Of a DNA stretch of 38,530 nucleotides, positions 2 through 38,530 are shown in pieces. Made by a program: the position numbers and the translations under genes. Below the pieces are notes generated by a model. It saw only the letters and a list, made by a program, of their open reading frames with translations, searched no databases and was not told where the DNA came from. Position 1 is the first letter of the stretch. Each line of letters begins with the position of its first letter. Origin of the DNA: an uncultured Clostridia bacterium (GTDB lineage Bacteria; Bacillota; Clostridia; Lachnospirales; Bianqueaceae); contig CANOUM010000001.1 in assembly GCA_947570515.1 (NCBI GenBank), positions 1 to 38,530 of the forward strand, read 5' to 3'.

Positions 2-697
2 CATACCTATGCGATCGAGTGCTGGGATCTGAATCCGCGTGCCGGTATTCCGCTGGTATTTCCGCAGGTTAAGGATACGGATTTGACAGATGAGGAGAAG
101 GAAGAGCAGCACTACAAATATATCAAATGGATCGATGAGCATAATGATGGCGAAGGATTTAAGCCATGGACCAAATTCCAGCATCCGCAGCTGGGCGAGG
201 TAGAGATTGGCGGTATTGATTATAAGCATATCGTGCAGAATCCTCCGGTTAAATATTTGCCTCAGGAAGTCGAAAAGCATACGCGTTTCTTCCTGCGTGC
301 CGTTAAGACACTTCCGCTCATTCGTTTCACCAATATAACGGCTGAAAATGTCGGCGCAGATGTTTATAAAGTGCAGGCAACGCTGGCCAATCAAGGATAT
401 CTGCCAACCTATATTACGGCAGAAGCTAAAAATGCCAAGATCGTACGCGATTTGACCGTGAGCATTGAAGGCGAAGGCATCGAACTGGTACAGGGCAAGC
501 AGACCGAGACGATCGGGCAGCTGGGCGGCTTCTCCACACTGGGAGCCTCAATGTCTACGCTGGGTCCGTCTACCGGAAACGGTGATGGATGTGAAAAGGT
601 CATCACATGGGTGATCAAAGCCAAAGCAGGCACCACGCTCACCTTCACGGGTGGCAATGCTAAAGTCGGCAAGACAAGCAAACAGATTACGCTGTAA
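2..697 (+). CDS. M14-like metallocarboxypeptidase, C-terminal part (5' end lies outside the window)
   Basis: The frame is open from the window edge (HTYAIECWDLNPRAGIPLVF... precedes the listed TTG at 83). The tail resembles Firmicute M14 peptidase C-terminal regions from memory. No catalytic motif is present in this fragment. A hairpin terminator follows. Confidence 0.45.
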   Translation, partial: HTYAIECWDLNPRAGIPLVFPQVKDTDLTDEEKEEQHYKYIKWIDEHNDGEGFKPWTKFQHPQLGEVEIGGIDYKHIVQNPPVKYLPQEVEKHTRFFLRAVKTLPLIRFTNITAENVGADVYKVQATLANQGYLPTYITAEAKNAKIVRDLTVSIEGEGIELVQGKQTETIGQLGGFSTLGASMSTLGPSTGNGDGCEKVITWVIKAKAGTTLTFTGGNAKVGKTSKQITL

Positions 698-3458: not shown

Positions 3459-3486
3459 GGATTTAACAAGAAAGGATATATCAAAA

Positions 3487-4137
3487 ATGAAAAAAAGCTT
3501 TGTTATTATTGGCTTGGGGCGTTTTGGAACGAGTCTGGCCCTTCAGCTGTTTGAAATGGGACAGGAGGTGCTGGCCGTTGATATTGAAAGCGCGAAAGTG
3601 GAGGCCATCAAGGATCATGTCACCGTGGCGGCGCAGGCTGATCTGAGGGACGAACGAGCACTTTTGCAGCTAGGGGTTCAGAATTTCGATGCGGTCATCA
3701 TCAGTATCGGCGGAGACGTGCAGTCCTCCATCATGGCAACGGTGCTCTGCAAGGAGCTGGGAGCACGCATGATCATTGCCAAAGCAGCGGATGCGCTGCA
3801 TGCCAAGCTTCTCAAAAAGGTAGGTGCAGATAAAATCCTTATGACAGAGCGGGAAGCCGGCGCGCGGCTGGCGCGTTCTTTGGTAAGCGAAAGCCTGATT
3901 GACTATCTGGAGCTGTCGGATCAATACAGCGTGAGCGAAATCTCGATTCCTTCAAAATGGGTGGGGCATAGCCTCAATGAGCTGCGCGTGCGTAACATCT
4001 ATGATATCTCAGTCATTGCAATTTGCAGAGACGAAAGCATTATCGTCAAAATTGATCCCAAAGAAGACCTTAAAGCCGGAGACATTCTGGTTGTGATCGG
4101 CGAAAATAAAGATATTTCAAATATTATGAAACGATAG
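3487..4137 (+). CDS. ktrA: TrkA/KtrA family potassium uptake protein (RCK, NAD-binding subunit)
   Basis: N-terminal Rossmann motif IIGLGRFG and a C-terminal RCK_C-like segment (GDILVVIGENKDI). I prefer the ATG at 3487 over the listed TTG at 3451. Confidence 0.85.
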   Translation: MKKSFVIIGLGRFGTSLALQLFEMGQEVLAVDIESAKVEAIKDHVTVAAQADLRDERALLQLGVQNFDAVIISIGGDVQSSIMATVLCKELGARMIIAKAADALHAKLLKKVGADKILMTEREAGARLARSLVSESLIDYLELSDQYSVSEISIPSKWVGHSLNELRVRNIYDISVIAICRDESIIVKIDPKEDLKAGDILVVIGENKDISNIMKR

Positions 4138-4146
4138 GAGACAGCA

Positions 4147-4674
4147 ATGGAGCGTTGGGACTTATATACAGCCAATAGGGAGAAAACTGGAAGAAGCATG
4201 CTGCGAGGCGAGCCCATGCCCGCAGGATATTATCGACTGGTTGTCGGAATTTGGGTTATGAATACGCAGGGGCAGATTTTGCTGACACTGCGGCATCCTC
4301 AAAAGGAGGTATATCCGAATACATGGGAAAACAGCGGCGGAGCCGCGCAAATGGGTGAGAGCAGTCATCAGGCGGCTGCGCGCGAGCTGCGGGAGGAAAC
4401 CGGAATTGCGGCAGCAGAGCAAGAGCTGCAGTATATGGGAACGGTCGTTAGGGAAAGCAGCGATGGTTTGGATGGCTGCTTTGTCGATACCTATTTGCTG
4501 CATCGTGATATAAAGCTGAGCGAGATACAGCTGCAGGAGGGCGAGACAGTAGACGCCCGCTGGGTAACGCCGCAGGAGCTGGACGAACTATGCCGTCAGG
4601 GGGCAGTGGCAAAGCCTGTTGCGGAGCGATGGAAGCAGTTTAAAGAAAAAATTTTGCGAGAAGGAATGTCATGA
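4147..4674 (+). CDS. NUDIX hydrolase
   Basis: Complete Nudix box Gx5Ex7REUxEExGU: GAAQMGESSHQAAARELREETGI. Confidence 0.85.
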   Translation: MERWDLYTANREKTGRSMLRGEPMPAGYYRLVVGIWVMNTQGQILLTLRHPQKEVYPNTWENSGGAAQMGESSHQAAARELREETGIAAAEQELQYMGTVVRESSDGLDGCFVDTYLLHRDIKLSEIQLQEGETVDARWVTPQELDELCRQGAVAKPVAERWKQFKEKILREGMS

Positions 4675-5735
4675 ATCAGCTTGAAGTCGTAGATCCTAAC
4701 TTTCGCCTGAGACAGGTCGGCGGCAGACAGGATGTGGTTTTTTATGATGTACGGCAGGCGCCCTTTCAGATATATGGCCTTCTGAGGCCATCGTGCTCAG
4801 AGGAAGGTTTTTTGCGGATGCCTGCAGAGATTGCCGCGCAGGTGAGCGAAGGCGTTTCCTATCTCAATACGAATACGGCAGGAGGCCGCGTACGCTTTGG
4901 GACGGATTCACCGTATGTTGCGATCCATGCGGAGCTTTATCATATAGGCAGAATGCCGCATTTTGCTTTGAGCGGAAGCGCTGGTTTTGATCTGTATTAT
5001 CAGCGGGAAGGTAAGGAATGCTACGGCGGTACGTTTATGCCGCCATTTGATCTGCAGAGTTCTTATGAAGCGCTTTTAGAGCTTCCGGACGAAGCCGCCG
5101 GGCAGGATATTACGATCAATTTTCCGCTTTACAGCGGTGTAAAAGAATTGAGGATTGGTCTAAAGGCGGGCTGCAGCGTCACAACGGCGGCAGGATATGC
5201 GCATGGACCGGTTGTATTTTATGGGTCGTCCATTACGCAGGGCGGATGTGCTTCCCGGCCGGGGAATGCTTATCAGAGCATTTTGTCGCGTGCGCTGGGG
5301 ATGGATTTTTGCAATCTTGGATTTTCAGGCAATGCGAAGGGCGAGGAAACGATGGGCACGTATATAGCAGGCCTTGCGATGGCGGCCTTTGTGTATGATT
5401 ATGATCACAATGCGCCGAGTGCAGGGCATTTGCAGAGGACGCATGCACGGATGTTTAGGCAGATTCGCAGGAGACAGCCGGAATTACCGGTGATCCTGCT
5501 TTCGCGGCCTAAATTGGTGCTGAATGAAGAGGAGAAGATGAGACGGGCGATCATTCGTGCAACATATGAGGAAGCTTATGCGCGGGGGGATCGAAATGTA
5601 TACTGGATAGATGGGAGCACGATGCTGCGATTAGGAGGAGATAGTGCAACGGTGGATGGGTGTCATCCTAATGATCTGGGCTTTATGTGTATGGCGGAGG
5701 GGCTCAAGGAAATTTTGCAAAAGGTACTTTTATAA
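4671..5735 (+). CDS. SGNH/GDSL-type hydrolase with GxDLY N-terminal domain
   Basis: GFDLYY (GxDLY domain), block I FYGSSITQG and block V DGCHPND. ATGA start/stop overlap with the upstream Nudix gene. Confidence 0.8.
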   Translation: MNQLEVVDPNFRLRQVGGRQDVVFYDVRQAPFQIYGLLRPSCSEEGFLRMPAEIAAQVSEGVSYLNTNTAGGRVRFGTDSPYVAIHAELYHIGRMPHFALSGSAGFDLYYQREGKECYGGTFMPPFDLQSSYEALLELPDEAAGQDITINFPLYSGVKELRIGLKAGCSVTTAAGYAHGPVVFYGSSITQGGCASRPGNAYQSILSRALGMDFCNLGFSGNAKGEETMGTYIAGLAMAAFVYDYDHNAPSAGHLQRTHARMFRQIRRRQPELPVILLSRPKLVLNEEEKMRRAIIRATYEEAYARGDRNVYWIDGSTMLRLGGDSATVDGCHPNDLGFMCMAEGLKEILQKVLL

Positions 5736-22465: not shown

Positions 22466-23008
22466 TTATTTTTTTACCGGGCTGTGCGTTAATTTTTTGG
22501 ATAAGTACAGAACAAGATCATCATCATTTTTACAATCCGTATAGGGCTCGCATACCTCCTCCAGATACCATACGCCTGTGCCATCCGGGATATAGCCGCG
22601 TTTTACATACAAGCGCTGGGCGCTTCCGTAGCCGCTGTGCATGCCCACTCCCAAATAAACGGTGTCAGCATAGCCAGCTGCAACCTGCTCAGCCACATCC
22701 ATCAGCTTGCTTCCAATGCCTTTGCAGCGGTATTTTTCCAGTACGCCAAAATCAACAATCTCCGGATATCCTTTGTATGCAAAGGATCCCCACTCTGAGT
22801 TAGGATATACGTTGATATAGCCGGCAATATGATGACGATATTCGGCCACCAGCGTTGTTGCTTTGCCTTCTGCCTGATGACGCAGTCGCATACGGTATTT
22901 TTCAATATCAGCCTGCCAGCCCTGGGCAATTTCTTCGTCGGTGATGATCTGGGCATCTTCAGGCTGCAGGTCACGAACCAGAATATCTTGATCTTGATAA
23001 TAAATCAT
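22466..23008 (-). CDS. GNAT family N-acetyltransferase
   Basis: Acetyl-CoA motif A YRCKGIGSKLM (R/QxxGxG/A). 180 aa. AAGGAG RBS. Confidence 0.8.
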   Translation of the reverse strand: MIYYQDQDILVRDLQPEDAQIITDEEIAQGWQADIEKYRMRLRHQAEGKATTLVAEYRHHIAGYINVYPNSEWGSFAYKGYPEIVDFGVLEKYRCKGIGSKLMDVAEQVAAGYADTVYLGVGMHSGYGSAQRLYVKRGYIPDGTGVWYLEEVCEPYTDCKNDDDLVLYLSKKLTHSPVKK

Positions 23009-23053
23009 GGGTTTCTCCTTTACGACAAGTTTACTTCAAAAAATCAAACGGAT

Positions 23054-23276
23054 ATGTACGCAATTCTTTTTTTGCGTACATGTAAGTATAAGAAATAAAA
23101 GCATTTATGTACGCAGTTTCCCACTTTGCACACATATAACAAGCAATATATTGAAAAGAGTTGTATGCAATAGACGGATTGCGTACATGTGATGTATCAG
23201 TTTTTAAGATGATGTGCATGCAAATCGGCTTACTGCGTACACATGACTGCCCAAATCATACAGAGGCATGTACGCA
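23054..23276. repeat. Array of six copies of ATGTACGCA / TGCGTACAT in alternating orientation
   Basis: Forward copies at 23054-23062, 23107-23115 and 23268-23276. Reverse copies at 23073-23081, 23180-23188 and 23234-23241 (the last is an 8/9 match). Confidence 0.9.
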
Positions 23277-23460
23277 AAAAGTCCATGAACGATTCTTACT
23301 GCCATTTTTACTTAAATATCGCAAGTTTGCTGAAAGCAAGCTTGGAGCGCAGTACAAGTATTTGATTAGCCAAATTATATCTTACTGCGCTTAGTATATC
23401 ATATGAAAGATACGATTTCTACGATAGTTTTGAATATAACAGTTGTTAGTCTGTATACCC

Positions 23461-23489
23461 TTGCAATTTGAAGGTAAACACGGTATGAT
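23461..23489 (+). promoter_or_regulatory. Candidate sigma-A promoter for the C-N hydrolase operon
   Basis: TTGCAA (23461-23466), 17-nt spacer, TATGAT (23484-23489). AAGGAGG RBS at 23517-23523. Confidence 0.5.
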
Positions 23490-23533
23490 AGAGCAGAAAG
23501 TTTGGCTCAGCTGACAAAGGAGGACAAAACCAA

Positions 23534-33585: not shown

Positions 33586-34182
33586 TTATGTTTGGGGATT
33601 AGCCATATTTTTCATAGGGTCTCCCCATTTTCCGAGATATCTTCCGTCAATGGAAGAATATGTTTCTTCACCCGGACATAGTACTGGGGCGGCCTGCATC
33701 AATCGTTCTGTAAAGGGGATTGTCATATCCAGCAGTTTTTCATCCTGCGTTACATTACGGATTAAACAAAGAAAAATGTCGGATCCATCTCCCATAGGGA
33801 TGGATTCCTTCACTTCCAGTTCAAAACTTACAGGGCTTTCTGCAATGGTTGGCACATCTAATACTTGTCCCCGTTCTACAGCAGGCAGGTATTTCATTTT
33901 ATCAGGGGTGCTTCTGCCATCGGTACACCCATAATAATCTGCCAGAGGCAGCAACTGTTCAGATACGAGATTGGCCGAGAATACACCATTTTTGCGGATC
34001 AAATCCTTGGTCAGCTTCTCCTCGCCTATACAAGTCATTACTCCGAGTCCTTCGGCGAGATGGCAATATCCAAACCAGCAGAAAAGACCAAAATGGGGCT
34101 GCCCGTCTTCCTGCTTTGTGCCATAAAGAAATAATGTCTGTGGGCAGAAATTATTATCAATCTTAGTTTTTATCTTTGCCAT
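33586..34182 (-). CDS. Flavin reductase-like (FMN-binding split-barrel) family protein
   Basis: 198 aa. The pattern ...FSANLVSEQLLPLADYYGCTDGRSTPDKMK... resembles flavin reductase family proteins, from memory. Overlaps the marR stop by 20 nt. Confidence 0.55.
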   Translation of the reverse strand: MAKIKTKIDNNFCPQTLFLYGTKQEDGQPHFGLFCWFGYCHLAEGLGVMTCIGEEKLTKDLIRKNGVFSANLVSEQLLPLADYYGCTDGRSTPDKMKYLPAVERGQVLDVPTIAESPVSFELEVKESIPMGDGSDIFLCLIRNVTQDEKLLDMTIPFTERLMQAAPVLCPGEETYSSIDGRYLGKWGDPMKNMANPQT

Positions 34183-34642
34183 TATGTATATCCTTTCCTT
34201 TTTTCAATGCTTGTTCTGCTCGATCCAGATTGGAAACGATGCGATCAAGATACTGTTCTAATTCTCTGATCTCGGTCTTTTCAAAATCCATAAAAAACAG
34301 ACTGTTCATCTGCTGGGAGACTTGATTATAACGGCTCTCCAATGCACGGGCTTTTGGTGTCAGGCTTATCAGGCTTTGACGCCGATCAGAAGCTGAAATT
34401 TCTCGATAAATTAAACCGTTTTCTTCCATTCTACAAAGCATGACGGTAAGTGTATTTTTGGCTAATCCTGTCTTTTGAGCAAGTTCTACAATAGGAATCC
34501 CTTCACTTTTCCATAACACATAAAGAATATGTCCTTGTGGTCCGTTAAACTCCTCGACGCCGCATGTCTGCAAAAGCCGTTCAAAAACTCTCCCCTGAAT
34601 CTGTTTAATATGGGAAATTAAAAAGCCTGTTCGTGTTTCCAA
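34163..34642 (-). CDS. MarR family transcriptional regulator
   Basis: Winged-helix core GIPIVELAQKTGLAKNTLTVMLCRMEENGLIYREISASDRR. TTG start with GGAAGG upstream. Confidence 0.85.
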   Translation of the reverse strand: METRTGFLISHIKQIQGRVFERLLQTCGVEEFNGPQGHILYVLWKSEGIPIVELAQKTGLAKNTLTVMLCRMEENGLIYREISASDRRQSLISLTPKARALESRYNQVSQQMNSLFFMDFEKTEIRELEQYLDRIVSNLDRAEQALKKGKDIHNGKDKN

Positions 34643-34920
34643 CGTTGTTATACCTTCCTTGCTTACCGCTTCGCAAGGATAGAAGCGGTAGTTTTGCTGT
34701 CAGCATAAAAAAGGACGTCTCCTTTTCATAATAAAATAGTACTATATAGAACTTATTTTGTCAAGGAGTAAAATTAGTAAAGGGTAAAAAATAGGGAAAA
34801 GAAAGAATAAGATTGTAGAATTGTCTAATCTTGTATGATAAAATATGTATGTTGAAAATCCAAGACATGCATTTTAGAGAGCAATAGGTGTAATCAATAA
34901 TGAGTTGCGGAGGATTAGCA

Positions 34921-35400
34921 ATGATTAGAAAAGCAGAAGAAAGAGATTTACAACGGATAGCCGAAATCATTATATTTGGGAAACGTGTCGCATATTGTTC
35001 TATTTTTCAAAATGATATGGTGTCATTTAACGAGCTGAGAGTCGTAGCTCTTTATAATGAATTATATAATGATTCAGAGAAATGGAAAAATATGCTGGTG
35101 TATGATGATGGAATTGTAAAAGCGGTTATCAACTATATTGATACGGAAAATAAAGACACTATTGAAATACTTGATTTTTATGTGGAGCCATTTTTTAAGG
35201 GAGAGGGAATAGGAAGAAAGCTGATAAATCAATTATGTAATAAAGTAAAAAGGCAATATAATACCATTATTTTGTGGGTAATTAAAGACAATATTTCGGC
35301 AAGAAAATTTTATGAACGGAATGGATTTCAAAGGACGGACAATGAGCGTTTGATTGAAGGAACAAATAAATTAGAGATGCAGTATGTCAGATATTTGTAA
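34921..35400 (+). CDS. GNAT family N-acetyltransferase
   Basis: Motif A FKGEGIGRKLI. GGAGG sits 8 nt before the ATG at 34921 (the listed start at 34900 is less likely). Confidence 0.8.
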   Translation: MIRKAEERDLQRIAEIIIFGKRVAYCSIFQNDMVSFNELRVVALYNELYNDSEKWKNMLVYDDGIVKAVINYIDTENKDTIEILDFYVEPFFKGEGIGRKLINQLCNKVKRQYNTIILWVIKDNISARKFYERNGFQRTDNERLIEGTNKLEMQYVRYL

Positions 35401-35464
35401 TGGGATGATATCTAAATACAAAGTTTAAGTCTGAAAATGAGAAAGTTTAGGAGTGTGAAAAGGT

Positions 35465-35701
35465 ATGTTTAGTTTAAAGAAAGAACAGAGAAAAAAGAAT
35501 ATATTTCTAATTTTATCCATTATTTCTGCATTTGTATTTATTGCAGGAGTGATGTGTACCATCATGGGAGAATTAAGTCCGGTACAATTTATAATCAATG
35601 AAAGTCCCATTAAATTAGTTGTTCTCCCTGCGCTTATATTTTTTGTAGCATTTGCATTATATAAAAATAGTAAAAAAGCAATAGAAGAAAACACAAAGTA
35701 A
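35465..35701 (+). CDS. Hypothetical small membrane protein (2 predicted TM)
   Basis: 78-aa ORF with two hydrophobic stretches flanked by Lys-rich ends. Weak RBS and no recognisable family. Confidence 0.4.
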   Translation: MFSLKKEQRKKNIFLILSIISAFVFIAGVMCTIMGELSPVQFIINESPIKLVVLPALIFFVAFALYKNSKKAIEENTK

Positions 35702-35744
35702 TTTTAATCTAAATTTGAAAATCGCAATTTTATAAGTGGTTATT

Positions 35745-35810
35745 GCTCCTCATAGGGTTTCAATAAAATCCTTCAAAAGTCTTGAAAATAAAGGATTTAT
35801 CGGAATGTGT
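35745..35810. repeat. Junction repeat unit copy 1 (A-like CTCATAGGG plus B module)
   Basis: 35781-35800 is identical to 37262-37281 (CTTGAAAATAAAGGATTTAT). Hairpin AAATCCTT (35766-35773) / AAGGATTT (35791-35798). Confidence 0.85.
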
Positions 35811-35861
35811 TCGCTTTACCCCTTTATATAATTTCACACAAGTTTATTCTTACTCTGATTG

Positions 35862-35888
35862 CTTATAAGGGCAAAATAAAGGGCAGTT
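35862..35888. repeat. Junction repeat A module copy (CTTATAAGGGCAAAATAAAGGGCAGTT)
   Basis: Similar to 37202-37222 and 37802-37826. Contains tandem ATAAGG / ATAAAGG. Confidence 0.7.
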
Positions 35889-35998
35889 AATCTGATGCTA
35901 TCTATAGAATGTATAAGTCAAATATGCATGCAAGCGTAGATATTTTTATCATTGTTTGGAACGAATGAAAAACTAAGAAATATGAGGAGGAATAAAAA

Positions 35999-37024
35999 AT
36001 GCAACTACGAATATCGAGTATACCCATAATGCTTGAATATTTATCAAAAATGAATGCAGAATCCGTCGATAAAGCTGTGGTTGAAAAAATTTTCGAGCAT
36101 GAAGATTATCAGTTCGAAATGAGGCGGTACGGTTTACACTCTGCGGACCCGCTTATATCTTATTTTTCACACCTTAGAAGCATCAAGGTGGGGGACATTC
36201 CTGATTTAAGCAATGAACGAAAAAGTGCATTAAGAGATAAGCATAAACTGTGGTTAGACTGTTCAACTAATCTACAAAAATACTACAATCGTTATGAAAA
36301 GGTAAAGCATATTCTTTGTGATGACAATATTCAATCTCTACAGCATAAGCTCTTTGCTGCATTTCCAAATGAAGTTGCCATAAACGATATAAGTATTATA
36401 TCAACACTAAGTTTTGGACCTTCCTTCGGATATGTTTATGAGAATGCATTGCATATAGATTTGTTTGGTATTGAAGATATCTGCACAATTGAAGAGATGC
36501 CATACATTATTCTTCATGAGATGCACCATCTACAAGTTCAAAAACTAATTGGCAGTTATCATTCTTTCACTCGGAATTTTGGTTTACTGGATGACTACAT
36601 ATTTAGATTTAGTGGTGAGGGCTTGGCAATTAAGTTCTGCAATAACGCCGAAGGCGTTGTATCAAAGAAATTGGATAACCATTTGAATGCCAATATAGGT
36701 ATTCCTGCAATGTCCATACTTAACAATCATTTTAAGGAGCATTTCAATCTTTTCAATGATACAATTAAGAGAATTAAACAAAATTCAATTACTGCAAGTG
36801 AAATTGATGAACAGTTCAAGTCTTATTGGTGGAATCCATACCTTTATAAAGATGAGAATCCATTTCTAACACAAACGCCAATATACAGCTTTGGAAATGA
36901 AATTTTTGGATGTATTTTTGATGCTTTTGGAATGGAAATATTGTTTGAATGTTTTTATAACCCCGCTAAAGTTATTGAATATTTTAATAAGACAAACTGT
37001 GGGTATATTATTTCGGAAACATAA
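35999..37024 (+). CDS. Putative Zn-dependent protease-like protein with HExxH motif (DUF2268/DUF5700-like)
   Basis: 341 aa with the LHEMHH motif. GAGGAGG RBS. The family name is from memory and tentative. Confidence 0.55.
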   Translation: MQLRISSIPIMLEYLSKMNAESVDKAVVEKIFEHEDYQFEMRRYGLHSADPLISYFSHLRSIKVGDIPDLSNERKSALRDKHKLWLDCSTNLQKYYNRYEKVKHILCDDNIQSLQHKLFAAFPNEVAINDISIISTLSFGPSFGYVYENALHIDLFGIEDICTIEEMPYIILHEMHHLQVQKLIGSYHSFTRNFGLLDDYIFRFSGEGLAIKFCNNAEGVVSKKLDNHLNANIGIPAMSILNNHFKEHFNLFNDTIKRIKQNSITASEIDEQFKSYWWNPYLYKDENPFLTQTPIYSFGNEIFGCIFDAFGMEILFECFYNPAKVIEYFNKTNCGYIISET

Positions 37025-37201
37025 TCTCGGAAGAGGTAAAAAATACTCTTCAAATAGTGAACCTGCTCTTCATAAAGCGAAATACTCTATTGTACAAATT
37101 GCAGGTTTGTGCGATGAGTGCACTTCGTTCGCAAATTTCGAAGGCTTATTACTCTCTGAAAGAGTATTTTGTATTCAGATAAATAAATTTTCTTGTTTTG
37201 A

Positions 37202-37291
37202 CTCATAAGGGCAGAAATAAGGAAAAATACATAAGGTTGGGAAACCAAATGGTCGAAATTCCTTGAAAATAAAGGATTTATTGCAATGTGT
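37202..37291. repeat. Junction repeat unit copy 2 (A module with three ATAAGG, then B module)
   Basis: ATAAGG at 37205, 37217 and 37231. The B module 37254-37291 ends in the ATG at 37286. Confidence 0.85.
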
Positions 37292-37807
37292 AAAATAGTA
37301 AAAATGATTGAAATTCACGGTGTAAATGCACATAAAGCTTTTACTAAAACGCGTGTGGGATGTAGAGGAATTGTAATAAAAGATTCTCGTATGCTTATTT
37401 CACACGAAGTAAATGCTGATTATTATTTGATCCCGGGTGGTGGTTTGGAAGCAGGGGAAACACCCGAAGAATGTTGTATTCGTGAGATTTGTGAAGAAAC
37501 AGGATATATTGTAAAACCTAGTATTCATTTTCTTACGATACATGAATACTACGAAGAGTACAAATTTATAAGCCACTACTTTCTTTGTGATATTATAGGG
37601 GAATCAGAGCAAAACTTAACCGCCGATGAAATCAAACGAGGATTGATTCCCGAATGGATAAGTCCAGATAAAATGCTTGAACTATATTCGAAGCATGGTG
37701 ATTTTGCAATACCTAACCAGAAGAAGCAAGGAGCATATTTGCGGGAGTATATTACACTCAAAGAATATCTCAGAAAATCCAACATTATTTCACCTTTATT
37801 TCTGTAA
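37286..37807 (+). CDS. NUDIX hydrolase
   Basis: Nudix box GGLEAGETPEECCIREICEETGY. The start at 37286 lies inside repeat module B. The alternative ATG at 37304 lacks an RBS. Confidence 0.8.
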   Translation: MCKIVKMIEIHGVNAHKAFTKTRVGCRGIVIKDSRMLISHEVNADYYLIPGGGLEAGETPEECCIREICEETGYIVKPSIHFLTIHEYYEEYKFISHYFLCDIIGESEQNLTADEIKRGLIPEWISPDKMLELYSKHGDFAIPNQKKQGAYLREYITLKEYLRKSNIISPLFL

Positions 37808-37924
37808 TAAAGGCGGTAAGGCAGTTCTGGCTATTCAAATCCTTGAGCCTGCTGCAGGGCATCAAACCCCGACATTGTTATATAGAACGATCGCAAGAAT
37901 CCTGAAGGGATTTCTTGCAATGTA
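37802..37924. repeat. Junction repeat unit copy 3 (A module overlapping the Nudix stop, GC-rich insert, degenerate B module)
   Basis: A: CTGTAATAAAGGCGGTAAGGCAGTT (37802-37826). B: GCAAGAATCCTGAAGGGATTTCTTGCAATGTA (37893-37924). Confidence 0.75.
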
Positions 37925-37985
37925 AAAAAGCTGTATCTGAAAAATTTAAAACGGTTATTAGACATCCGATGAAAGAGATATAATT

Positions 37986-38530
37986 ATGAAACTAATACAA
38001 ATCATGGCACTTGCCGTACTTGCGCTATTCTATACCGCATACTTTACTAAAATGATTTTACAACGCCGAAAGGGTGTGAAAACAGACCAAATCGGCAAAG
38101 GCAGAAAGCCCCGAAAGGTACTTGTGACTGAGATACTGATGAAGCTCGCAACCTACTCTATTGTCATTGTGGAAGTGGTCAGTATCGTCATGAATTTCCG
38201 TATGTGGAAATCCTCTTATGCGCGGATTGGCATAGGCGTTGCAGCTCTTGGCGTTCTTGTCTTTATCGTAGCTATGGTAACGATGAGGGATAGCTGGAGA
38301 GCGGGCATACCGGAAAAAGATAAAACCGAGCTTGTAACAACGAAAATATACCGTATCAGCCGCAACCCCGCTTTTCTCGGTTTTGATGTAATGTATCTTG
38401 GTATGCTAATTGCATTTTTCAATTACTTGCATTTGATTTTTGCGTTTTACGCCATTATAATGCTTCATTTGCAGATATTACAAGAGGAAAAGTATTTGAC
38501 CGAAGCCTTTGGAGAGAAATATACCGAATA
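37986..38530 (+). CDS. Isoprenylcysteine carboxyl methyltransferase (ICMT)/phospholipid methyltransferase family membrane protein, 3' end outside window
   Basis: My own translation is open from the ATG at 37986 to the window edge: MKLIQIMALAVLALFYTAYF...TTKIYRISRNPAFLGFDVMYLG...LQEEKYLTEAFGEKY, the typical ICMT-family core. Confidence 0.75.
   Translation, partial: MKLIQIMALAVLALFYTAYFTKMILQRRKGVKTDQIGKGRKPRKVLVTEILMKLATYSIVIVEVVSIVMNFRMWKSSYARIGIGVAALGVLVFIVAMVTMRDSWRAGIPEKDKTELVTTKIYRISRNPAFLGFDVMYLGMLIAFFNYLHLIFAFYAIIMLHLQILQEEKYLTEAFGEKYTE

What the first reader, a model, noticed from the sequence alone, without database searches (positions are those of the whole stretch)
34700..38530. 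AT-rich segment organised like a gene-cassette array: unrelated single genes, one orientation, homologous junction repeats, no recombinase in view
- **Composition:** from about 34.7 kb the sequence shifts by eye from about half G+C to about one third.
- **Gene layout:** gene density drops. Five small, functionally unrelated genes (GNAT, 2-TM peptide, HExxH protein, Nudix, ICMT-like methyltransferase) all lie on the plus strand, separated by 180-300-bp spacers.
- **Homologous spacers:** each spacer has an A module with ATAAGG repeats (degenerate at 34777; clear at 35862, 37202 and 37802). Each also has a B module (35765-35810, 37254-37291, 37893-37924) that includes a 20-nt exact match.
- **Resemblance:** GNAT and Nudix genes are classic cargo of chromosomal integron cassette arrays. 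Homogeneous inter-cassette repeats recall the homogeneous attC repeats of chromosomal integron cassette arrays.
- **Why it may be new:** I find neither an IntI-like gene, nor the attC core sites (RYYYAAC/GTTRRRY), nor CRISPR-like regular spacing. Integrons are not expected in Firmicutes. This may be a cassette-shuffling system that uses a different recombination site and enzyme, possibly encoded beyond the right edge of the window.
Basis: partly seen in the sequence, partly recalled or inferred. Interest (0 to 1): 0.75.

Follow-up and report, generated by a model that had tools for sequence, protein, structure and literature searches.

The report
Gene-less remnant of a mobilisable element
The "junction repeats" are the left and right ends of a widespread gut-Firmicutes integrative mobilisable element, and here they bracket a single cargo gene in a 1.6-kb derivative with no mobility genes of its own, so this is decayed mobile-element DNA and not a new cassette system.

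Summary
GC falls from about 0.50 to about 0.32 at 34.7 kb, five small unrelated plus-strand genes follow, and two spacers share significant homology, including a 20-nt exact match.

The shared modules are not a new cassette recombination site. They are arm motifs of a 6.5-7.5 kb integrative mobilisable element (IME): left end, tnpV, variable cargo, MobA/MobL relaxase, XRE regulator, tyrosine integrase, right end. Its B core occurs in at least 120 species-representative genomes.
- Spacer 2 (35704-35887) is an IME left end (E=6e-51).
- Spacer 3 (37187-37283) is an IME right end (E=5e-16).
- 37077-37148 matches the conserved hairpin block upstream of the IME relaxase (E=5e-11), a putative oriT.

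So DUF5700 sits in a 1.6-kb derivative that keeps the cis sites and has lost every backbone gene. That fits the definition of a CIME. A collinear copy (80.6% identity, intact 13-bp direct repeats) lies at an unrelated site in another organism.

Spacers 0 and 4 are not supported (spacer 4 has a weak 25-nt fragment). There is no attC site and no integron integrase, and no recombinase in the 1.5 kb beyond the window edge. This is a new member of a known kind, of moderate interest.

The parts
34643..34899 (.). Spacer 0 (MarR / GNAT intergenic region). It contains the left limit of the strain-variable segment at about 34790. It is not an IME end.
   Evidence: L009 (94.6% identical relative) loses homology at 34790, right after GTAAAGGGTAAAAA. 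No hit to the left-end, right-end or oriT profiles. No significant similarity to the other spacers.
34900..35400 (+). GNAT acetyltransferase gene. AT-rich, outside the mini-element.
   Evidence: Pfam Acetyltransf_1, E=2.4e-14.
35465..35701 (+). 78-aa two-TM ORF. Its stop codon lies 3 nt before the mini-element left end.
   Evidence: ORF list. Only sub-threshold Pfam hits.
35704..35887 (+). IME left end (attL-side arm). Order: core-like TTTAATCTAAATTTG, then a variable hairpin, then the B motif (35780-35809), then the A motif (35861-35885). It is truncated before the tnpV leader.
   Evidence: nhmmer profile of 78 IME left ends: E=5.8e-51, model positions 31-214. Alignment with 9 IMEs. Left-junction consensus CAAAT-N4-ATTTG in 15 elements.
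35999..37024 (+). Cargo gene: DUF5700 putative Zn-dependent peptidase (HExxH).
   Evidence: Pfam PF18958, E=5e-11. Homologues at 72-85% identity sit in at least 7 other contexts; only L134/L135 carry IME ends.
37077..37161 (+). oriT-like block: a nested inverted repeat homologous to the conserved non-coding block upstream of the IME relaxase gene.
   Evidence: blastn to 15 IMEs, 73-77% over 70-88 nt, located 106-241 nt upstream of the relaxase start. Profile built without the window: E=4.8e-11 for 37077-37148. Window 37025-37170 folds with z=-4.0. Consensus hairpin of 29 pairs with a UA-to-CG covarying inner pair. The oriT function is inferred, not shown.
37187..37291 (+). IME right end (attR-side arm): A motif (37199-37236) then B motif (37261-37290). 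The terminal ~30 nt and att core of a canonical right end are missing or not recognisable.
   Evidence: Right-end profile from 6 IMEs: E=4.7e-16 for 37187-37283. Enlarged profile: E=1.2e-17. Alignment with six IME right ends. The left-end profile also hits the B part, 37247-37291, at E=2.7e-8.
37286..37807 (+). Nudix hydrolase gene. The annotated start codon, the first ~3 codons and the Shine-Dalgarno AAAGGA (37271-37276) are supplied by the element's B motif. Native gene sequence begins at about 37293.
   Evidence: Pfam NUDIX, E=7e-16. Homologues cover only 91-94% of the ORF. The L118 homologue starts MMVKTIEIHG and nucleotide homology starts at GTAAAAATGATT. 89% nt identity to the L146 gene over window 37307-37782 only.
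37893..37929 (+). Weak B-like fragment in spacer 4 (hairpin GCAAGAATCC..GGGATTTCTTGC followed by AATGT). Possibly a very decayed IME arm; unproven.
   Evidence: 21/25 match to the spacer 3 B motif, z=5.0. No hit to any family profile. No significant similarity to the right-end remnant next to the L146 Nudix gene.
37986..38530 (+). 5' part of a 555-aa ICMT/PEMT-type methyltransferase fused to a beta-lactamase-fold (serine hydrolase) domain. It continues about 1.12 kb past the window edge and is the last gene of the AT-rich block.
   Evidence: Pfam ICMT, E=3e-9. Identical contig L001: gene 3533-5200 with ICMT+PEMT+Beta-lactamase, then a hairpin and a GC-rich minus-strand gene.

Best explanation
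WHAT IT IS
The repeats are the two ends of an integrative mobilisable element (IME) family that is common in gut Clostridia.
- A full element is 6.5-7.5 kb.
- Gene order: left end, tnpV (putative excisionase-like factor), a highly variable AT-rich cargo slot, MobA/MobL relaxase (minus strand), a conserved hairpin block (putative oriT), XRE-type regulator, tyrosine integrase, right end.
- Both ends carry the same two arm motifs in direct orientation but mirrored order. A is ATAAGGGCAAA..CAAGGG. B is CCTTGAAAATAnAGGnTTTA.
- Left end: core, then B, then A. Right end: A, then B, then core. The core is CAAAT-N4-ATTTG.

WHAT IS IN THE WINDOW
35704 to about 37291 is a 1.6-kb deletion derivative: left end, one cargo gene (DUF5700), the oriT-like block, right end. 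It has no tnpV, relaxase, regulator or integrase. That is a CIME-type non-autonomous element.

HOW IT WORKS (INFERRED)
- An integrase, probably helped by TnpV, supplied in trans by a full-length relative recombines the att cores to excise and integrate the unit.
- A relaxase supplied in trans nicks the retained oriT for conjugative mobilisation.
- The window copy has a diverged left core and no recognisable right core. It is fused to the start of the Nudix gene, so it is probably now fixed in place.
- It has been co-opted: the B motif provides the Nudix ribosome-binding site and start codon.

THE REST OF THE BLOCK
GNAT/2-TM, Nudix and ICMT-beta-lactamase are strain-variable accessory DNA with cargo-like composition. 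They are not demonstrably bounded by recombination sites.
For: SHOWN
Its flanks are conserved, and many hits lie at contig ends, as expected of a multi-copy mobile sequence.
2. Architecture: downstream of it lie TnpV (PF14198, E=1e-45) in 60 loci, a MobA_MobL relaxase in 24, an XRE regulator in 15 and a Phage_integrase protein (E=6.5e-28) in 16. Unrelated cargo genes lie in between.
3. Element boundaries and the shared core were defined from near-identical elements in different genera.
4. Profile hits: window spacer 2 = left end (E=5.8e-51); spacer 3 = right end (E=4.7e-16); 37077-37148 = the block upstream of the relaxase (E=4.8e-11, profile built without the window).
5. A second copy of the same unit lies in L134/L135: left end E=2.5e-59, oriT-like block E=7e-13, right end E=1.4e-26. 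It is one collinear 1582-nt alignment at 80.6% identity, with unrelated flanking genes and a perfect 13-bp direct repeat AAATCGGAATTTG at both boundaries.
6. Other deletion derivatives and tandem remnants of the family exist: L070, L109, L063, L105, L040.
7. IME cargo is AT-rich (0.31-0.41 GC) against 0.45-0.49 for the backbone, matching the island.
8. The same locus is identical in several independent assemblies, so it is not an assembly artefact.

LITERATURE
- Definition of a CIME, and of tandem accretion and decay: PMC5704250 and PMC12084326.
- TnpV + MobA/MobL mobilisable transposons, with TnpV postulated to be Xis-like: PMC3158075.
Against: - No excision, integration or transfer has been observed. 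Trans-mobilisation rests on two insertion sites only.
- The window copy lacks a recognisable right att core (right-end alignment stops at model position 111 of about 146), and its left core differs from consensus. This particular copy may never move again.
- The oriT assignment is by position and structure only. The block could instead be a promoter or operator of the relaxase/XRE divergent region.
- Most DUF5700 homologues examined have no IME ends: 6 of 7 other contexts. The gene is therefore not obligatorily tied to the element.
- No full-length helper IME is known to exist in the host of this window. The genome was not available.
- The origin of the remaining three quarters of the AT-rich block is not explained by this model.
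Confidence: 0.85

Rival explanations
1. An integron-like or otherwise novel gene-cassette array: each small gene is a cassette bounded by a homologous recombination site and shuffled by an unidentified recombinase.
For: - Same-strand, unrelated small genes in AT-rich DNA.
- Two spacers share homology.
- The DUF5700 ORF plus about 14/47 nt of flank recurs in many unrelated contexts with sharp homology breakpoints.
- The Nudix gene is 89% nt-identical to a gene in another organism with unrelated flanks.
Against: - Only 2 of 5 spacers are significantly related.
- Those two are a left end and a right end of a known type of element, not copies of one junction site.
- No attC cores.
- No recombinase in the window genes tested or in the 1.5-kb rightward extension.
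- No repeat family within the window beyond these pieces.
Confidence: 0.04
2. An in-situ fossil only. A full-length IME integrated here once and decayed by three deletions. The 1.6-kb unit has never moved as such, and the L134 copy is an independent decay product of a related IME that carried the same cargo.
For: - The window copy has degenerate or absent att cores.
- Decayed derivatives with pseudogene remnants exist elsewhere, e.g. L070.
- Remnants are common in Firmicutes composite islands (PMC12084326).
Against: - The two copies are collinear over the entire 1582 nt in a single alignment. They share the same backbone/cargo junctions, and neither has gene remnants. Three identical independent deletions are unlikely.
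- The L134 copy has a perfect 13-bp direct repeat, as after a recent integration.
- No full-length IME with DUF5700 cargo was seen among about 120 loci.
Confidence: 0.15
3. Paralogous regulatory regions. The shared modules are promoter, operator or 5'-UTR sequences duplicated in front of co-regulated genes, for example operators of the adjacent MarR regulator.
For: - The B motif contains a good Shine-Dalgarno sequence plus ATG and now starts the Nudix ORF.
- In full elements the left end lies directly upstream of tnpV, so it probably carries its promoter.
- The B motif contains a small inverted repeat.
Against: - The same sequences are conserved as terminal segments of a mobile element in at least 120 unrelated genomes.
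- The hairpins are not thermodynamically unusual (z -0.2 to -1.7).
- The promoter-like scan is not enriched in a useful way (33 found versus 23 expected, none in the modules).
- Spacers 0, 1 and 4 lack the modules.
Confidence: 0.05

Closest known systems
CIMEs (cis-mobilisable elements) and ICE/IME remnants in Firmicutes composite islands (review PMC5704250; Faecalibacterium survey PMC12084326)
   Same: - Retains sequences of both element ends (attL and attR sides) but has lost the integration and transfer genes.
- Derived from an IME by deletion.
- Lies in strain-variable, cargo-like DNA.
   Different: - Very small (1.6 kb, one gene).
- Also retains the putative oriT.
- A collinear copy sits at an unrelated chromosomal site in another organism. 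That suggests movement in trans via a low-specificity core (CAAAT-N4-ATTTG), and not cis-mobilisation by accretion at a fixed tRNA or gene-end site.
- The window copy itself lacks a recognisable right core.
Tn4451/Tn4453 and Tn6104-Tn6106 mobilisable transposons of clostridia (PMC3158075; PMC5704250)
   Same: The parent element shares the tnpV gene next to one end, a cargo slot after tnpV, and (with Tn6104) a mobA/mobL mobilisation gene.
   Different: - The parent family here uses a tyrosine integrase (PF00589) with arm-type repeats and a ~13-bp core. Those transposons use a large serine recombinase (TnpX) with a 2-bp crossover.
- The window unit has none of these genes.
iOriT / relaxase-less mobilisable islands and the tiny MGIs MTnSag1 / tISCpe8 (bioRxiv 10.64898/2026.01.13.699239; PMC5704250)
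   Same: A minimal hitch-hiker that keeps an oriT-like site and relies on other elements' proteins. Its size is comparable to MTnSag1 (1.7-2.0 kb).
   Different: - Those elements still encode their own integrase or DDE transposase; this unit encodes no mobility protein at all.
- The cited survey found integrative elements essentially always larger than 4 kb.
- oriT function here is untested.
Chromosomal integron cassette arrays / CALINs
   Same: Same-orientation, small, unrelated, AT-rich accessory genes. Recombination-site sequences without an adjacent integrase.
   Different: - No attC structure or R'/R'' cores.
- Sites are ~100-180-nt left and right element ends, not one repeated junction.
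- Only one gene is bracketed.
- The cognate recombinase is an IME integrase with arm-type sites, not an IntI.
MITEs (miniature inverted-repeat transposable elements)
   Same: Conceptually analogous: an internally deleted, non-autonomous derivative that keeps only the ends recognised by an enzyme supplied in trans.
   Different: - The ends are not terminal inverted repeats, and no DDE transposase is involved.
- It carries a passenger gene and a transfer-origin-like site.

Membership tests
Integron cassette array / CALIN | attC sites (imperfect palindromes with R'' RYYYAAC ... R' GTTRRRY) at each cassette junction | tested here: not met
   In the island plus extension there is only 1 GTTRRRY and 6 RYYYAAC, at or below shuffled expectation (7.4 and 5.1). 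No pair 40-160 nt apart in either orientation. The IntegronFinder attC model itself could not be run.
Integron cassette array / CALIN | IntI-type tyrosine recombinase adjacent to the array (for a complete integron) | tested here: not met
   No recombinase among the island genes, among 10 further window genes, or in the 1.5-kb rightward extension L001.
Integron cassette array / CALIN | Every cassette bounded by the same type of site | tested here: not met
   Only spacers 2 and 3 are significantly related, and they correspond to different (left vs right) element ends.
CIME (decayed ICE/IME retaining attL and attR, lacking integration and transfer genes) | Flanked by attL- and attR-side sequences of an identifiable ICE/IME family | tested here: met
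   Left-end profile E=5.8e-51. Right-end profile E=4.7e-16. Both are in the orientation and order of a full element. Caveat: the right att core itself is not recognisable in the window copy. It is intact (13-bp direct repeat) in the L134 copy.
CIME (decayed ICE/IME retaining attL and attR, lacking integration and transfer genes) | No integrase, excisionase, relaxase or other transfer genes inside | tested here: met
   Between 35704 and 37291 the only ORF of gene size is DUF5700. No blastn or profile trace of tnpV, relaxase, XRE or int.
CIME (decayed ICE/IME retaining attL and attR, lacking integration and transfer genes) | Can be excised or mobilised by the cognate element's integrase | not testable with these tools
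   Needs experiment or read-level data. The only indirect support is a second copy at an unrelated site.
Parent IME family (tnpV - cargo - MobA/MobL - XRE - tyrosine integrase) | Encodes its own tyrosine integrase and MobA/MobL relaxase | tested here: not met
   Both are absent from the window unit. They are present in full elements such as L036, L043, L071, L024 and L111. The window unit is a derivative, not a member in the autonomous sense.
Parent IME family (tnpV - cargo - MobA/MobL - XRE - tyrosine integrase) | Conserved non-coding blocks: left end, block upstream of the relaxase, right end, in that order on one strand | tested here: met
   35704-35887, 37077-37148 and 37187-37283, all on the plus strand.
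iOriT-type hitcher (integrative element with oriT but no relaxase/MPF) | Carries a functional oriT related to that of a helper | tested here: inconclusive
   Sequence and hairpin homology to the block 106-241 nt upstream of the relaxase genes. Nicking and transfer were not tested, and the block's oriT identity is inferred from position.
MITE | Terminal inverted repeats and target-site duplication made by a DDE transposase | tested here: not met
   The ends are non-identical left and right arms carrying direct-orientation motifs. The boundary repeat is a direct repeat of an att core.

The most novel reading that the evidence does not exclude
The 1.6-kb unit (att arms + oriT-like hairpin + one cargo gene, no mobility protein) is a living class of miniature, protein-less IMEs, the IME counterpart of MITEs.
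- Full-length relatives would supply the tyrosine integrase/TnpV for excision and integration, and the relaxase for conjugative mobilisation, all in trans.
- Such units would then spread single AT-rich accessory genes between gut Firmicutes at a size below anything counted in current surveys of integrative elements.
- A related open point: cargo segments with sharp boundaries (ORF plus about 14/47 nt) appear both inside and outside such elements. That hints at an unrecognised way of loading cargo.
Probability: 0.25. Interest if true: 0.6.

Novelty: new member of a known kind. Interest (0 to 1): 0.35.

Why it matters
- It removes a false lead. There is no integron-like cassette system in this Firmicute, and the 'junction repeats' have a concrete, checkable origin.
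- It shows that short intergenic repeats in AT-rich accessory regions of gut Clostridia can be diagnostic scars of a very widespread IME family. Profile models of the element ends and the oriT-like block find derivatives that gene-based tools would miss, because no mobility gene is left.
- If the miniature unit is mobilised in trans, single-gene transfer between gut bacteria could occur through elements too small to be counted in present mobilome surveys.
- The element has been domesticated locally: its arm motif now provides the ribosome-binding site and start codon of the neighbouring Nudix gene.

Tried and rejected
- Megablast of the island against the plasmid and phage collections: no match.
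- tRNA scan of the window, looking for a tRNA integration site: none.
- Rfam at E<=1 over the identical contig L001: no family, so the modules and the 37025-37170 hairpin are not a described RNA.
- Promoter/terminator consensus scan: uninformative (33 promoter-like sites vs 23 expected, none in the modules; 2 terminator-like sites vs 3.4 expected).
- Folding of the three B modules as RNA: not unusual (z -0.2, -0.6, -1.7). A structured-RNA reading of B was dropped.
- My first hand-drawn structure for the oriT-like block was mis-registered (52% of cells paired, no better than slid controls). It was replaced by the RNAalifold consensus.
- Multiple alignment of all five spacers: mean column identity 35%, so there is no common spacer architecture.
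- Spacer 4 as a decayed right end: no hit to the original or enlarged right-end profiles. No significant similarity to the right-end remnant beside the L146 Nudix homologue (score 19 vs shuffled mean 17.5).
- Search for an empty site by exact look-up of the MarR, flavin-reductase and 2-TM proteins: this returned only the same strain (99.8-100% identity) plus one relative whose contig ends 50 nt past the breakpoint.
- Island proteins as cargo of the ~120 sampled IMEs: not found. There was only a Nudix homologue 6 kb from an element in L118 and weak ICMT hits.

Full report
1. THE OBSERVATION

The composition shift is real. GC in 1-kb windows is mostly 0.47-0.56 across the window and drops to 0.29-0.39 from about 34.0-34.7 kb to the end.

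The five plus-strand genes are as described:

| Gene | Coordinates |
|---|---|
| GNAT | 34900-35400 |
| 78-aa two-TM ORF | 35465-35701 |
| DUF5700 (HExxH) | 35999-37024 |
| Nudix | 37286-37807 |
| ICMT/PEMT-type methyltransferase | 37986 to the edge |

They follow a divergently oriented MarR gene (34163-34642, minus) and a flavin reductase gene.

Repeat analysis confirms the 20-nt exact match (35781-35800 = 37262-37281). It also confirms a 45-nt B module at 80% identity and a 21-nt A module at 81% identity between spacers 2 and 3. Their local alignment is far above shuffles (z=11.7).

The claim that every spacer has both modules does not hold:
- Spacer 0 is unrelated to the others (z<=1.9).
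- Spacer 4 has only a 25-nt, 21/25 B-like match to spacer 3 (z=5.0).
- The 64-nt spacer 1 has nothing.
- The module order is reversed between spacers: B then A in spacer 2, A then B in spacer 3.

No attC-type core pairs exist. No tRNA gene is present. No Rfam family matches.

2. EXTENSION BEYOND THE EDGE

An identical metagenome contig (L001, 5609 bp) continues 1.5 kb to the right.
- The last gene is a 555-aa fusion of the ICMT/PEMT domain with a beta-lactamase-fold domain.
- It is followed by a hairpin, then GC-rich DNA with a minus-strand gene.
- The AT-rich block is therefore about 5 kb and contains no recombinase.
- Ten other window genes tested are ordinary chromosomal functions.
- All other contigs recovered by exact-protein look-up are 99.8-100% identical to the window, so the sequence is not an assembly artefact.
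- One relative (L009, 94.6% identity over the MarR-flavin reductase pair) loses homology at 34790 on the island side and also at the other flank. The block is therefore strain-variable.

3. WHERE THE REPEATS COME FROM

- Hosts: Lachnospiraceae, Oscillospiraceae/Ruminococcaceae, Erysipelotrichaceae, Peptostreptococcus, and single MAGs labelled Bacteroides and Coriobacteriia.
- There is one hit per locus, and many are at contig ends.
- The flanks are conserved too. The whole of window spacer 2, with B followed by A, is one contiguous ~180-nt conserved sequence.

Gene clustering around the hits and Pfam give this architecture:
- conserved left region;
- tnpV (PF14198, E=1e-45; 60 loci);
- a slot of unrelated cargo genes (TetR + CPBP protease, ArsR + permease, ABC transporters, sigma/anti-sigma pairs, and others);
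- MobA/MobL relaxase on the minus strand (24 loci);
- XRE-type regulator (15 loci);
- tyrosine integrase (PF00589, E=6.5e-28; 16 loci).

Near-identical elements in Dorea, Oliverpabstia and Peptostreptococcus define the boundaries.
- The left junction reads CAAAT-NNNN-ATTTG followed by AAAA.. in 15 elements.
- The right end terminates in TAAAY-NNNN-ATTTG.
- This is an inverted pair of core-type sites, as expected for a tyrosine recombinase.
- The right end, downstream of the integrase, reads CTCATAAGGGCAAAAACAAGGGAAAATACATAAGG...CCTTGAAAATACAGGGTTTAC...core. That is A then B.

The literature places TnpV + MobA/MobL elements among clostridial mobilisable transposons, with TnpV postulated to be Xis-like (PMC3158075). 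Those use serine recombinases, whereas this family uses a tyrosine integrase.

4. WHAT IS IN THE WINDOW

Profile searches give the following:

| Profile | Window hit | E-value |
|---|---|---|
| 78 left ends | 35704-35887 (model 31-214) | 5.8e-51 |
| 78 left ends | 37247-37291 (B motif of spacer 3) | 2.7e-8 |
| 6 right ends | 37187-37283 | 4.7e-16 |
| enlarged right-end profile | 37179-37283 | 1.2e-17 |
| oriT-like block, built without the window | 37077-37148 | 4.8e-11 |

Window 37077-37161 lies inside a stretch that folds unusually well (z=-4.0). It matches a conserved non-coding block 106-241 nt upstream of the relaxase start codon in 15 IMEs. That block forms a nested hairpin of 29 consensus pairs, with one inner pair covarying UA to CG. 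By position and structure it is a candidate oriT; this is an inference.

The three conserved non-coding blocks of the IME are thus present in the right order and orientation around a single gene, DUF5700. No trace of tnpV, relaxase, regulator or integrase remains. [quoted passage not shown]

5. IS THE UNIT MOBILE?

The closest non-identical DUF5700 homologue (85% aa identity) lies in L134/L135.
- It sits between a LysR regulator gene and an amino-acid ABC transporter operon, a context unrelated to the window.
- It is flanked by the same three blocks: left end E=2.5e-59, oriT-like block E=7e-13, right end E=1.4e-26.
- The two copies align as one collinear 1582-nt segment at 80.6% identity with unrelated flanks. 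They share the same internal junctions, so they descend from a common miniature ancestor and not from independent decay.
- The L134 copy is bounded by a perfect 13-bp direct repeat, AAATCGGAATTTG.

Other derivatives of the family exist:
- L070: tnpV pseudogene, two cargo genes, int 3' remnant, right end.
- L109: 3.3 kb from left end to right end.
- L063, L105: tandem left-end remnants.
- L040: inverted left ends.

This fits the tandem-accretion and decay pattern described for Firmicutes (PMC12084326).

Two points argue for caution.
- The window copy has a diverged left core and no recognisable right core.
- Nucleotide homology with Nudix homologues that lack the element starts at about 37293 (GTAAAAATGATT...). 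The element's B motif supplies the Shine-Dalgarno sequence and the annotated ATG of Nudix. Homologues cover only 91-94% of the ORF.

The window copy is therefore probably immobilised and partly domesticated.

6. THE REST OF THE BLOCK

- DUF5700 homologues at 72-83% identity occur in at least six further contexts without IME ends.
- In L156-L160 the homology to the mini-element copies runs from 14 nt upstream of the start codon to about 47 nt past the stop. Those are the backbone/cargo junctions.
- The Nudix gene is 89% nt-identical to a gene in another organism (L146-L150) with unrelated flanks. There, an IME right-end remnant (E=7.6e-17) lies just downstream of it, and strains differ immediately beyond the remnant.
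- Window spacer 4 shows no significant similarity to that remnant.
- IME cargo is AT-rich, 0.31-0.41 GC against 0.45-0.49 for the backbone, like the island.
- These facts suggest the block is an accumulation of horizontally acquired accessory genes in which IME-family elements have repeatedly been involved. Only the DUF5700 unit is demonstrably delimited by recombination-site sequences.

7. COMPARISON AND VERDICT

The integron analogy fails on each defining feature tested. The closest known category is the CIME or remnant of an IME.

The unit differs from described CIMEs in four ways:
- its size (1.6 kb, one gene);
- retention of the oriT-like block;
- a low-specificity core;
- occurrence at two unrelated sites.

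A recent survey found integrative elements essentially always larger than 4 kb, and attributed that to the need for an integration module (bioRxiv 10.64898/2026.01.13.699239). A protein-less unit is below that range, but its activity is unproven.

I classify the finding as a new member of a known kind. Interest is moderate to low (0.35).

The most novel reading not excluded is that such miniature, protein-less IMEs are actively mobilised in trans. I give this a probability of about 0.25 and an interest of about 0.6 if true.

Noticed in passing
window 33601-34790; L009: The MarR-flavin reductase gene pair is conserved at 94.6% in a relative (L009), but both flanks differ. L009 has a Peptidase_S66 gene where the window has the sulfatase, and unrelated sequence beyond 34790. 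The pair behaves as a module in a mosaic region. GC there is intermediate (0.42).
   Followed up: partly
L156 2987-4073 (= L134 7987-9074; window ~35985-37068): The DUF5700 ORF with only about 14 nt upstream and about 47 nt downstream is shared at about 90% nt identity between an IME-derived mini-element and a context with no IME ends. The breakpoints fall exactly at the backbone/cargo junctions. How cargo segments with such sharp boundaries are exchanged is unexplained.
   Followed up: partly
L146 7001-7654 (also L147-L150); window 37307-37782: The Nudix gene is 89% nt-identical to a gene in another organism with unrelated flanks. There, an IME right-end remnant (E=7.6e-17) lies 47 nt downstream of it. 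Strains differ immediately beyond the remnant: a 160-aa GNAT, a 52-aa stub, or nothing.
   Followed up: partly
window 37986-38530 and L001 3533-5200: The last gene of the block is a 555-aa fusion of an ICMT/PEMT-type membrane methyltransferase with a beta-lactamase-fold (serine hydrolase / PBP-like) domain. This is an unusual domain combination and its function was not examined.
   Followed up: no
L040 (oriented: left ends at -86..72 and 3644..3480): Two truncated IME left ends in inverted orientation bracket about 3.5 kb containing a MATE-like transporter and other genes. This is a composite-transposon-like arrangement of IME ends.
   Followed up: no
L063 (-1056..-859 and -79..214); L105 (-980..-900): Tandem left-end remnants lie upstream of full elements, each followed by a different gene. 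This is consistent with repeated integration next to a resident end (accretion) followed by deletion.
   Followed up: no
IME left end, ~40 nt between the core and the B motif (e.g. window 35722-35765): This segment differs between IME subgroups but keeps hairpin potential. Examples: ACCACGATTTTATAAGTGGT, GACCTCTCAACAGAGGTT, AACCATAAAATTATGAG..CTCCATAGGTT. It may be a covarying structural or binding element. It was not analysed formally.
   Followed up: no
L031 (Bacteroides sp. MAG) and L064 (Coriobacteriia MAG 'Coprovicinus'): Near-consensus copies of this Firmicutes IME occur in MAGs assigned to other phyla. This is either cross-phylum transfer or binning contamination.
   Followed up: no
many loci (e.g. 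L041, L056, L060, L088, L092, L094, L100, L102, L103, L122): Independent assemblies break at the same point, 30-58 nt after the B core (...GGTTACACACAAG). The left end therefore behaves as a multi-copy repeat within those genomes or metagenomes.
   Followed up: no
window 22466-23500: A second low-GC pocket (0.41-0.42) contains another GNAT acetyltransferase on the minus strand. It was not examined for IME-end remnants beyond the whole-window profile scans, which found none.
   Followed up: partly
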